Below are positions 48,501 through 50,915 of a stretch of 64,000 nt of DNA, in pieces (within the stretch, counting starts at the first letter, position 1; every line of letters starts with the position of its first letter). Position numbers: made by a program. The stretch lies in assembly GCF_002854065.1 (NCBI RefSeq), contig NZ_CP024147.1; one strand, given 5' to 3'. Origin of the DNA: Escherichia coli. Its GTDB lineage: Bacteria; Pseudomonadota; Gammaproteobacteria; Enterobacterales; Enterobacteriaceae.

Positions 48501-50915
48501 ATTGAGGGGCTGGGAATGGGTGATCAACGGGAAGAAAAACGGCAGGCCAGCGTCTTTTTTCAGACGCGGTAAGACAAAATGTCGAACACACTGAACCATA
48601 CATCCTCCCGGCAAATTGTCCGGCATTATACTCATCGTCAGAAGCGGTGCAAGCATTTGATGCAATATTTTGTCAGCGCAAACGGTTTATTTGAATTATA
48701 AGTCAAAATACATGCATTTTTATTTGTTGTGATTCTGCAGGGGAACGGTCGTTCGGTATCAATAATTGCAGACATTTCCTGCTTTTTTCTTTTTCACTTT
48801 CACGCAATCAGATATGCATTTTATTCCATTCATCCGACTTATAGGGCGGAGTGTGAAAACGAACGGCTAACACTATTGCTTACTGCTCAGGGATGCGCGC
48901 TATCACTTTAATTTCAAAATCAAAGCCTGCCAGCCATGTAACACCTACCGCCGTCCAGTTTGGATAAGGTGGGGCGCTAAATATTTCATTTTTCACCGTC
49001 ATGATGTCTTCAAATTGGTTTTCTGGATCGGTATGGAAGCTCGTAACATCAATGATATCGTCAAAAGTGCATCCCGCAGCAGCCAGGGTCGCATGCAAAT
49101 TATCAAATGCCAGTCTGACTTGTTGCTGAAAATCGGGTTCTGGTGTTCCGTCCTCTCGACTTCCTACTTGCCCGGAAACAAACAGCAAATCGCCGGAACG
49201 AATAGCCGCAGAATAACGATGTTCTGCATACAGTGAATGTTGGCCAGCAGGGAAAACAGCGGTTCTTTCTACCATTTGGTTATCCTCAAGATTTACGACA
49301 TGAACAGAAGATTTCTCTTTACCGGGAGCCGCTTTTAGCGGACGACGTGAGTAAACAAAACCCAGACATCATGGATAATGGCTGGGCTTAATTGAGCGTA
49401 GTCGGTTATGCGCCAAACGCGCCATCAATGGTATGCATCGCGCCGGTAACAAAACTGGCTTCTGGCCCTGCTAACCATGCGACCATACCAGCGACCTCTT
49501 CCGGTTGCCCATGTCTTTTGATAGCCATCAAACTATGCAACATATCGCGCATTGGCCCGTTGGCGGGATTAGCGTCGGTATCAATTGGCCCTGGCTGGAC
49601 GACGTTAATGGTGATCCCACGCGGTCCAAAATCACGGGCCAGCCCGCGCGCCATGCCTTGCAGGGCAGATTTGCTGGCGGCATAAGCAGCCATGCCTGCA
49701 ACAGGCATACGATCGCCATTCACGGAGCCGATGATTAAGATGCGCCCGCCTTCGGGCATCTGCCGGGCGGCTTCAACAGAGGCATGATAAGGAGCATGAA
49801 TATTGATTTTGAAAAGGCGATCAATATCGTCGGCATTTAATTCCAGGGCCTCGCCAAAGACGCCAATACCTGCATTTACCACCAGGATATCCAATGCGCC
49901 GCTCTTACGAACGACATCAATGACAGCGTCTCTGTCAGCACTATCTGTGAATACTGCTGTCGCTCCAGTCTCTTGTGCCAGGCGTTTAGCGGCATCTTTC
50001 GACCCCGCATAGGTGAATCGTACATTGGCCCCATCGGTGACGAAACGACGTACGATAGCGGCACCGATACCACGACTGCCACCGAGGATGAGAACTGTCT
50101 TACCTGTAAAAGCGCCCATAAGGACTCCTTGATTTATTATGTAACATGCATTACAAAACTGTTTTAACTTTCTGTCAACAGGTTTTGTAATGGTCACTAA
50201 AAAACAATCTCGCGTTCCAGGTCGTCCCAGACGTTTCGCTCCTGAGCAGGCAATCTCTGCGGCAAAAGTGCTTTTTCACCAAAAAGGTTTCGATGCTGTC
50301 AGTGTTGCTGAAGTTACTGATTATCTTGGTATTAACCCCCCGAGCCTCTACGCGGCTTTTGGCAGTAAAGCTGGGTTATTTAGCCGTGTACTCAATGAAT
50401 ACGTCGGTACGGAAGCTATTCCGCTTGCCGATATTCTTCGTGATGATCGTCCAGTAGGCGAGTGCCTGGTTGAGGTATTAAAAGAAGCGGCGCGCAGATA
50501 TAGCCAAAACGGCGGCTGCGCTGGCTGTATGGTTCTTGAAGGTATTCATAGTCATGATCCACTAGCGCGTGATATTGCCGTTCAATATTATCACGCCGCA
50601 GAAACGACCATTTATGACTATATCGCCAGGCGGCATCCACAAAGCGCACAATGTGTGACTGATTTTATGAGTACCGTGATGTCAGGGCTTTCTGCGAAGG
50701 CACGGGAGGGGCACTCAATCGAACAACTCTGTGCAACAGCTGCACTGGCGGGGGAAGCGATAAAAACTCTTCTCAAGGAGTGATGCTGGCCTTGATCCGA
50801 AAGGCGGGAACGCGCCTGCCGATAAGTTGTGATAAGACAATAATTCACGCGTTAAGGCTAGCGGAATTGATCATCTTTTCGTATAACGATAGAAATGAAA
50901 CGTTGTTTTAATTAA

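What the first reader, a model, noticed from the sequence alone, without database searches (positions are those of the whole stretch)
50148..50194. Candidate BdcR operator: inverted repeat spanning the bdcA-bdcR divergent promoter and the bdcR start codon
GCATTACAAAACTGTTTT (50148-50165) and AACAGGTTTTGTAATGG (50178-50194) form an imperfect ~16-bp inverted repeat separated by ~12 bp. The right arm contains the bdcR ATG. TetR-family regulators typically bind such palindromes in the divergent intergenic region, so this is a plausible autoregulatory/bdcA operator.
Basis: inference. Interest (0 to 1): 0.4.

Follow-up and report, generated by a model that had tools for sequence, protein, structure and literature searches.

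The report
Two BdcR operators, not one
The inverted repeat between E. coli bdcA and bdcR is real, but its two arms are most likely neighbouring halves of two separate 24-26 bp repressor-binding sites, a layout conserved across proteobacteria and shared with the crystallised Pseudomonas CifR system; this is a useful correction but an ordinary kind of regulatory element.

Summary
The repeat exists: CATTACAAAAC (50149-50159) and GTTTTGTAATG (50182-50192) are 11/11 complementary with 22 nt between them. That is rare by chance (P about 0.002).

It is not one operator. In 19 homologous TetR loci, each regulator start region carries two palindromes of the form TTTTGTA-N8-TACAAAA, 44-50 bp apart. Fourteen of the first 15 lie divergent from bdcA. 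The loci span alpha-, beta- and gammaproteobacteria. The E. coli copies are:
- O1, about 50135-50160, over the shared -10 region and the bdcA start site.
- O2, about 50181-50206, over the bdcR ribosome site, ATG and codons 2-5.

A weight matrix built only from non-E. coli sites ranks O2 and O1 first and second of 63,973 window positions (24.9 and 22.6 bits; next best 7.8).

The same matrix finds both sites in the Pseudomonas cifR-morB spacer. The stronger one fits every base quoted for the crystallised CifR operator. BdcR keeps CifR's DNA-reading residues (R12, P50/P51, Y54) and its sensor cysteine (C113).

This is a new member of a known kind, and binding itself is untested.

The parts
50149..50159 (.). 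It is the right half-site of operator O1 (TACA core 50152-55 plus an A-tract) and also holds the shared -10 region.
   Evidence: promoter hexamers from PMC3946193 and PMC12825309 Table S2
50182..50192 (.). It is the left half-site of operator O2 (T-tract plus TGTA core 50186-89) and includes the bdcR ATG (50190-92).
50135..50160 (.). Operator O1, shown as a 26-bp window: TATTATGTAACATGCATTACAAAACT. TGTA is at 50140-43 and TACA at 50152-55, with the dyad at 50147/50148. It covers the bdcA start site and the -10 hexamers of both promoters.
   Evidence: PWM built from non-E. coli sites: 22.6 bits, rank 2 of 63,973. It aligns with O1 of 15 other loci.
50181..50206 (.). Operator O2, shown as a 26-bp window: GGTTTTGTAATGGTCACTAAAAAACA. 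TGTA is at 50186-89 and TAAA at 50198-201, with the dyad at 50193/50194. It covers the bdcR SD end, the ATG and codons 2-5, and lies just upstream of the bdcA -35.
   Evidence: PWM 24.9 bits, rank 1. The Microvirga O2 (gttttTGTAatggtcacTACAaataa) is nearly identical.
50150..50157 (.). Shared -10 region of the bidirectional promoter: bdcA TGTAAT on the minus strand (50155-50150) and bdcR TACAAA on the plus strand (50152-50157).
   Evidence: PMC3946193; PMC12825309, where in vitro transcription gave two divergent RNAs
50173..50178 (-). bdcA -35 hexamer TTGACA. It belongs to the conserved GTCAAGG box that lies between O1 and O2 in all loci. In most homologues that box also supplies the bdcR Shine-Dalgarno sequence.
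50129..50134 (+). bdcR -35 hexamer TTGATT. It overlaps the bdcA Shine-Dalgarno sequence (AGGAG on the minus strand, 50125-50129).
50142..50142 (-). bdcA transcription start (cappable-seq), as I read the formatting marks of Table S2; uncertain by 1-2 nt.
50166..50166 (+). bdcR transcription start (cappable-seq), as I read Table S2; uncertain by 1-2 nt. The left arm lies upstream of it, so it is not in the bdcR mRNA.
49406..50119 (-). bdcA (yjgI), a 237-aa SDR oxidoreductase and the regulated target.
50190..50783 (+). bdcR (yjgJ), a 197-aa TetR-family repressor related to CifR.

Best explanation
The bdcA-bdcR intergenic region carries two separate palindromic BdcR operators. O1 is about 50135-50160 and O2 about 50181-50206. 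Each has the form TTTTGTA(R)T-N4-A(Y)TACAAAA and is probably bound by one BdcR dimer.

By homology with CifR, each monomer would place its Pro-Pro recognition helix in the major groove at TGTA/TACA. Its N-terminal arginine (R12 of the GRPRRF motif) would sit in the narrow minor groove of the flanking T/A tract.

O1 sits on the shared -10 region and the bdcA start site of the bidirectional promoter, so an occupied O1 blocks RNA polymerase in both directions. O2 lies at about +16 to +41 of bdcR, where it could act as a roadblock. It also abuts the upstream edge of the bdcA -35. The result would be joint repression of bdcA and autorepression of bdcR, relieved when an unknown ligand releases BdcR.

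Any two oppositely oriented half-sites of a palindromic motif form such a repeat.

Shown: the sequence anatomy, its conservation, the promoter positions (published), and the match to the CifR operators. Inferred: BdcR binding, stoichiometry, the roles of O1 and O2, and ligand control.
For: 1. All 15 BdcR homologue loci first examined (50-62% identity; alpha-, beta- and gammaproteobacteria; 14 of them divergent from a 235-237-aa bdcA-like SDR, K. aerogenes L006 lacking it) carry two TGTA-N8-TACA palindromes 44-50 bp apart. A conserved GTCAAGG box lies between them. An unsupervised MAFFT alignment puts the conserved columns exactly there.
2. The pattern, allowing up to one mismatch, occurs 25 times in 1,035 nt inside the O1-O2 spans and 9 times in 45,415 nt outside them.
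3. A PWM built from 29 non-E. coli sites ranks E. coli O2 (24.9 bits) and O1 (22.6 bits) first and second of 63,973 positions. The next best scores 7.8 bits.
4. Four more distant relatives (42-45% identity, some with other partner genes) also have two top-scoring sites in their intergenic regions, with core TGTAGTGAyCACTACA.
5. The closest relative solved with operator DNA, CifR (E = 2.6e-18), has two mapped operators in its divergent spacer and binds one dimer per operator of at least 23 bp. The PWM finds exactly two sites, 50 bp apart, in the P. aeruginosa cifR-morB spacer: 21.8 and 16.6 bits, with the next at -8.3. The stronger, cifR-proximal site fits all 11 base identities quoted for the crystallised 26-mer: T2, T4-T6, C15, A16, G16', A17', A23', T4' and A23.
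6. BdcR conserves CifR's Arg6, Pro44/45 and Tyr48 as R12, P50/P51 and Y54. All are invariant in 30 homologues.
7. The right half of O2 is bdcR codons 3-5. These stay xxT ACA AAw even where GC3 is 0.7-0.9, while the encoded residues vary (TTK, TTN, ITE, NTN, DTK). The constraint is therefore on the DNA.
8. [quoted passage not shown]
Against: - No binding experiment with BdcR on this DNA was found or could be run. The YjgJ ChIP-seq set exists, but its model failed training.
- E. coli O2 has TAAA instead of TACA. The E. coli O1 spacer departs from the family core.
- The left half of O1 is degenerate in several alphaproteobacterial loci.
- The 11/11 identity of the two arms in E. coli (12/12 in the commonest allele) is higher than the motif alone requires, and I cannot explain it.
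- Raw identity of O1 and O2 to the single CifR 26-mer (15-16 of 26) is not unusual for A/T-rich sequence in this window.
- O1-O2 spacing varies from 44 to 50 bp, so nothing can be said about cooperativity.
Confidence: 0.8

Rival explanations
1. One reading: the two arms are the half-sites of a single operator (roughly 16-bp arms with a 12-22 bp spacer), contacted by one BdcR dimer or by a bridging tetramer.
For: The arms are perfectly complementary and statistically unusual. In the commonest E. coli allele the match is 12/12.
Against: - The arm centres are 33 bp apart (about 112 A), against 37.9 A between the HTH motifs of DNA-bound CifR.
- Each arm has a closer partner at the conserved 8-bp spacing.
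- In other loci the O1-right/O2-left pair is no more similar than any other half-site pair, and the inter-operator spacing varies from 44 to 50 bp.
- CifR binds as one dimer per operator.
Confidence: 0.06
2. The repeat acts as a nucleic-acid structure: either an RNA hairpin that hides the bdcR start codon, or a DNA cruciform.
For: As single-stranded DNA the 52-nt stretch folds at -10.2 kcal/mol, z = -4.2.
Against: - The published start sites (bdcR about 50166, bdcA about 50142) leave the left arm out of the bdcR mRNA and both arms out of the bdcA mRNA.
- The bdcR 5' region from its start site is less structured than shuffled controls (-3.6 kcal/mol, z = +1.8).
- There is no Rfam match.
- The pairing is not conserved elsewhere.
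Confidence: 0.03
3. The symmetry only reflects the bidirectional promoter (shared -10, mirrored -35/SD boxes), with no repressor site involved.
For: bdcA/bdcR is a published bidirectional promoter with a shared -10 region. The left arm contains both -10 hexamers. The SD/-35 boxes TCCTTGA and TCAAGGA mirror each other in most loci.
Against: - The promoter symmetry axis (about 50153/54) differs from the axis of the repeat (50170/71) and from the O1 and O2 dyads.
- O2 lies outside the core promoter, and its conservation reaches into the coding sequence against codon bias.
- The same motif is the crystallised operator of CifR.
Confidence: 0.05
4. Another regulator such as CRP uses these sites. TGT-N10-ACA is also the outline of the CRP consensus TGTGA-N6-TCACA.
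For: From my own reading of the sequence, O1 (TGTAACATGCATTACA) matches 8 of the 10 CRP core positions.
Against: The G4/C13 positions critical for CRP are missing. Homologues have TGTAG/CTACA, which departs further. The motif travels with the TetR gene across classes of bacteria.
Confidence: 0.02

Closest known systems
CifR operators in the Pseudomonas aeruginosa cifR-morB intergenic region (Ballok et al. 2012; crystal structure 6NSN, preprint PMC10827105)
   Same: - Homologous TetR regulator: 30% identity overall, with near-identical GRPR and PPSLYAAFGSK DNA-binding motifs.
- Two operators about 50 bp apart in a divergent spacer, with a GTCAAG box between them.
- The same TGTA/TATA-N8-TACA/TAAA core with T/A-tract flanks.
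- The regulator-proximal site is the stronger: 10-fold higher affinity for CifR, and the higher PWM score for BdcR O2.
- The regulator represses both itself and the divergent genes.
   Different: - The partner gene is an SDR (bdcA), not morB-cif.
- The intergenic region is 70 bp rather than 125 bp.
- In the BdcR clade O2 overlaps the regulator's start codon and first codons (TGTA starts 4 or 7 nt upstream of the start codon), whereas the cifR-proximal site is wholly upstream (32 nt upstream).
- BdcR binding and its ligand are untested.
- E. coli BdcR has Pro rather than Arg at the position equivalent to CifR Arg4.
Classical TetR/tetO and QacR/IR1 operators
   Same: Palindromic operators in the divergent regulator-target spacer, overlapping promoter elements. 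tetA-tetR also has two operators (O1 and O2) controlling both directions (my own knowledge).
   Different: Different sequence and a longer footprint (at least 23 bp). Recognition is inferred to combine a Pro-Pro helix with an arginine in the minor groove, as in CifR, rather than relying on base-specific major-groove hydrogen bonds.
Bidirectional promoters with a shared -10 region (Warman et al. 2021; PMC12825309)
   Same: bdcA/bdcR is one of the five experimentally studied examples. Its divergent start sites are about 23-24 bp apart around ATTACAAA.
   Different: As far as I read that work, it did not address a repressor at this promoter. Here the shared -10 region is also an operator half-site.

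Membership tests
CifR-type two-operator TetR system | The regulator is a CifR homologue that keeps the DNA-contact residues (N-terminal Arg6, Pro44/Pro45, Tyr48). | tested here: met
   phmmer E = 2.6e-18 to 6NSN. BLASTP alignment to wild-type CifR places R12, P50/P51 and Y54 at these positions. All are invariant in 30 homologues.
CifR-type two-operator TetR system | Two separate operator sites of at least 23 bp in the divergent intergenic region. | tested here: met
   At sequence level only. Two PWM hits 46 bp apart, 24.9 and 22.6 bits against a next best of 7.8. The same layout is seen in 19 other loci and in cifR-morB.
CifR-type two-operator TetR system | The operator sequence resembles the experimentally defined CifR operator. 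| tested here: met
   The PWM built from the BdcR clade recovers both CifR sites as the top two hits in L104. The best one fits 11 of 11 bases quoted for the crystallised 26-mer. Caveat: raw identity of the E. coli sites to that 26-mer (15-16 of 26) is not in itself significant.
CifR-type two-operator TetR system | The regulator binds the sites as one dimer each and is released by its ligand. | not testable with these tools
   Needs EMSA, footprinting or a structure with BdcR. No such data were found.
   The arm centres are 33 bp apart, against 37.9 A between the HTH motifs in the CifR-DNA complex. The TGTA/TACA cores within O1 and within O2 are 12 bp apart.
Bidirectional promoter with a shared -10 region | Divergent start sites 10-23 bp apart that use one -10 region and are active in vitro in both directions. 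| tested here: met
   From the literature, not recomputed: PMC12825309 text and Table S2 and PMC3946193 hexamers. The tool's own promoter scan found nothing, because TGTAAT and TACAAA fail its A2/T6 rule.
cis-regulatory RNA hairpin or leader | Both arms lie in one transcript and form a conserved stem. | tested here: not met
   Published start sites exclude it. The 5' UTR is unstructured. There is no Rfam hit and no conserved pairing.

The most novel reading that the evidence does not exclude
BdcR may be a cysteine-based electrophile or epoxide sensor of the CifR type. Its Cys113, invariant in 30 homologues, aligns with CifR's epoxide-sensing Cys107. If so, bdcA-bdcR would be an inducible reductase module for a reactive small molecule rather than a c-di-GMP device. 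Its operator O2 would be written into the regulator's own start codon and first codons, and the O1 half-site would double as the shared -10 region of a bidirectional promoter.
Probability: 0.3. Interest if true: 0.6.

Novelty: new member of a known kind. Interest (0 to 1): 0.4.

Why it matters
BdcA is widely cited and engineered as a biofilm-dispersal protein, yet its biochemical role is disputed. It has been described both as a c-di-GMP binder and as an NADPH-dependent SDR. The signal that induces it is unknown.

Placing the BdcR operators precisely, and tying BdcR to the structurally understood CifR system, gives concrete reagents:
- two 26-bp sites to use as probes;
- the key protein residues R12, P50/P51 and C113.

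It also gives a testable idea about the inducer class. In addition, it supplies a regulator for one of the few experimentally dissected bidirectional promoters.

The element itself, a TetR repressor with palindromic operators in a divergent spacer, is of an expected kind.

Tried and rejected
- The genome-contig scan with the single BdcR protein returned only two loci, both E. coli-like.
- The metagenome scan with a 30-sequence alignment returned 80 loci, all E. coli at 97-100%. They were useful only for polymorphism. The intergenic region is almost invariant; the main variant is G/A at 50181.
- Ma et al. 2011 (the BdcR paper) and Ballok et al. 2012 (the CifR sites) are not held. I therefore could not check whether a BdcR gel shift was ever done, nor read the CifR site sequences directly. 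I inferred the crystallised 26-mer from base numbers in the preprint text.
- tblastn of CifR against the plasmid collection found no Pseudomonas record.
- The promoter scan found nothing, because of its strict -10 rule.
- CRP use of the TGT-N10-ACA outline was considered and judged unlikely.
- Direct identity to the CifR 26-mer proved non-discriminating.

Full report
**What is there.** The window carries E. coli bdcA (49406-50119, minus strand) and bdcR (50190-50783, plus strand), separated by 70 bp. The stretch occurs in 4770 of 5426 complete E. coli genomes with those annotations. BdcA matches NCBIfam NF009383 at 479.9 bits.

The reported repeat is real. CATTACAAAAC (50149-50159) and GTTTTGTAATG (50182-50192) are 11/11 complementary with 22 nt between them. 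With a one-base bulge the arms extend by TGTT/AACA. A perfect repeat of this length arose in 0.16% of 5000 dinucleotide shuffles of the 86-nt region. Only two such repeats exist in the 64-kb window. The other, at 47004-47037, is a terminator-like hairpin.

**Promoter context from the literature.** Shimada et al. (PMC3946193) list the bdcA promoter as TTGACA-17-TGTAAT and the bdcR promoter as TTGATT-17-TACAAA. A 2026 study of bidirectional promoters (PMC12825309) used bdcA/bdcR as one of five test cases and obtained two divergent RNAs in vitro. Its Table S2 marks cappable-seq start sites. I read them as about 50142 for bdcA and about 50166 for bdcR, around a shared -10 region at 50150-50157.

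It follows that the left arm is not in the bdcR mRNA and neither arm is in the bdcA mRNA. The bdcR 5' region folds worse than shuffled controls, and Rfam finds nothing. An RNA-structure reading is therefore excluded. The tool's own promoter scan found nothing because both -10 hexamers fail its A2/T6 rule.

BdcR is cited as a negative regulator of bdcA. Both genes are reported to rise more than 20-fold together in biofilm. I found no published operator. A YjgJ ChIP-seq data set exists, but its binding model failed.

**Comparative evidence.** E. coli BdcR has no relatives in the 65-90% identity range. The next homologues are 55-63% identical and are spread over alpha-, beta- and gammaproteobacteria.

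I collected 15 such loci. Fourteen have a divergent bdcA-like SDR of 235-237 aa. Every locus shows the same layout:
- a palindrome TTnTGTA-N8-TACAnAA next to the partner gene (O1);
- a conserved GTCAAGG box, which is the partner's -35 TTGAC on the other strand and usually the regulator's Shine-Dalgarno sequence;
- a second palindrome (O2), whose TGTA starts 4 or 7 nt before the regulator's start codon.

MAFFT, run without any pattern prior, aligns these blocks and leaves the spacer unconserved. The pattern, allowing up to one mismatch, occurs 25 times in 1,035 nt inside the O1-O2 spans and 9 times in 45,415 nt elsewhere in the loci.

E. coli fits this layout:
- O1: TTATGTA-ACATGCAT-TACAAAA, with TGTA at 50140.
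- O2: TTTTGTA-ATGGTCAC-TAAAAAA, with TGTA at 50186.

A symmetric weight matrix built from 29 non-E. coli sites scores these at 22.6 and 24.9 bits. They are the top two of 63,973 positions, and the next best scores 7.8 bits. Since P(score >= s) is at most 2^-s, each is expected fewer than 0.01 times in the window.

Four relatives at 42-45% identity, some with different partner genes, again have exactly two top hits 47-50 bp apart. Their near-perfect core is TGTAGTGAyCACTACA.

The left arm is the right half of O1 and the right arm is the left half of O2. In the 15 other loci, that pair of half-sites is 7.2/11 identical on average. This is indistinguishable from the other five possible pairs, which range from 6.9 to 7.7.

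O1-O2 spacing varies between 44 and 50 bp. The TGTT/AACA extension lies in the unconserved spacer and in the bdcA -35. The long-range repeat is therefore a by-product of two adjacent palindromic sites.

The exact 11/11 match is an E. coli peculiarity that I cannot explain further. It becomes 12/12 in the commonest allele, which has A at 50181.

**DNA-level constraint on coding sequence.** The right half of O2 is bdcR codons 3-5. They remain xxT ACA AAw even in genes with GC3 of 0.72-0.88. In those same genes, Thr and Lys codons elsewhere almost never end in A or T. The encoded residues also vary: TTK, TTN, ITE, NTN and DTK. In Pantoea dispersa and in cifR, O2 is wholly upstream of the start codon. 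It is therefore the site that is conserved, not the peptide.

**Link to a solved system.** Two solved relatives score about equally: 2i10, a putative TetR regulator (E = 1.4e-18), and CifR of P. aeruginosa (6NSN, E = 2.6e-18). CifR is the one characterised with operator DNA. The CifR preprint (PMC10827105) reports the following:
- two operators in the cifR-morB spacer, with the cifR-proximal one binding 10-fold tighter;
- a minimal length of 23-27 bp;
- one dimer per operator;
- Pro44/Pro45 in the major groove, with the two Pro45 residues 37.9 A apart;
- Arg6 inserted into A/T-rich outer minor grooves at T4-T6;
- Cys107 as the epoxide sensor.

I fetched the P. aeruginosa locus. The BdcR-clade matrix finds two sites there, 50 bp apart, scoring 21.8 and 16.6 bits with the next at -8.3. 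A CGTCAAG box lies between them. The stronger, cifR-proximal site read on the minus strand is TTATTTGTATCGATCACTATAAATTT. It agrees with all eleven base identities that the preprint quotes for the crystallised 26-mer.

BdcR aligns without gaps through this region, so CifR's R6, P44/P45, Y48 and C107 correspond to BdcR's R12, P50/P51, Y54 and C113. All are invariant in 30 homologues.

In the E. coli arms, the TTTT tract corresponds to the arginine-contacted minor groove and GTA to the major-groove part. Raw identity of the E. coli sites to the single CifR 26-mer (15-16 of 26) is not in itself unusual in this A/T-rich window. The matrix result is the valid test.

**Mechanism (inferred).** O1 spans about -18 to +8 of bdcA and about -31 to -6 of bdcR, covering both -10 hexamers and the bdcA start site. 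Bound BdcR would exclude RNA polymerase in both directions. O2 spans about +16 to +41 of bdcR, where it could act as a roadblock. It ends 3 bp from the bdcA -35, where it could interfere sterically or with UP-element contacts.

An unknown ligand would release BdcR. By analogy with CifR, that ligand might act on Cys113.

**Verdict.** The element is a new, apparently undescribed member of the CifR-type two-operator design. It is ordinary in kind but corrects the anatomy and gives a lead on the BdcR signal. Confidence in the two-operator anatomy is about 0.8. Binding itself is untested.

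Noticed in passing
window 50526-50528 (Cys113 codon of bdcR): [quoted passage not shown] This hints that BdcR senses a reactive electrophile.
   Followed up: partly
window 50124-50134 and 50173-50182; same columns in alignment A2: Each gene's Shine-Dalgarno sequence overlaps the other gene's -35 hexamer. In most homologues the two boxes TCCTTGA and TCAAGGA are mirror images about 50 bp apart. The whole spacer is therefore a nested, pseudo-symmetric design.
   Followed up: partly
window 50181: The commonest E. coli allele in 81 sampled loci has A instead of G here. That lengthens the repeat to 12/12 and weakens the bdcR Shine-Dalgarno sequence from AGG to AAG.
   Followed up: partly
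window 50155-50165: AAAACTGTTTT is a perfect 5-1-5 palindrome that overlaps the O1 flank and ends just before the bdcR start site. It is not conserved in other loci and is probably a by-product of the A/T tracts.
   Followed up: no
L006 1447-1520 (Klebsiella aerogenes): This locus lacks the divergent bdcA; an aldo-keto reductase lies upstream on the same strand. O1 is perfect (ATATTGTAATGTTGGTTACAATAT), but O2 has decayed to TGTC...GACC with G/C-ending codons.
   Followed up: no
window 50190-50783; one search hit list: E. coli bdcR has no homologues between about 65% and 90% identity. Enterobacterial copies (55-62%) are no closer than alphaproteobacterial ones (60-63%). The gene has a low GC3 (0.39) and is missing from 656 of 5426 complete E. 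coli genomes. Together this suggests horizontal acquisition.
   Followed up: no
L001 (SFGN01000138.1): A contig labelled as a Lachnospiraceae MAG encodes a BdcR 100% identical to the E. coli protein. It is probably a mis-binned E. coli contig.
   Followed up: no
window 47004-47037: The only other perfect inverted repeat of at least 11 nt in the window is AAAAGTCTGGCTC / GAGCCAGACTTTT, with an 8-nt loop and flanking T runs. It sits just downstream of a 153-aa and a 311-aa minus-strand ORF pair. It looks like an ordinary intrinsic terminator.
   Followed up: partly
window 48880-49275 (minus strand): A 131-aa ORF lies 130 nt downstream of bdcA on the same strand. I did not check whether it belongs to the same BdcR-controlled transcript. 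A RidA-family gene also sits near the Roseinatronobacter locus.
   Followed up: no
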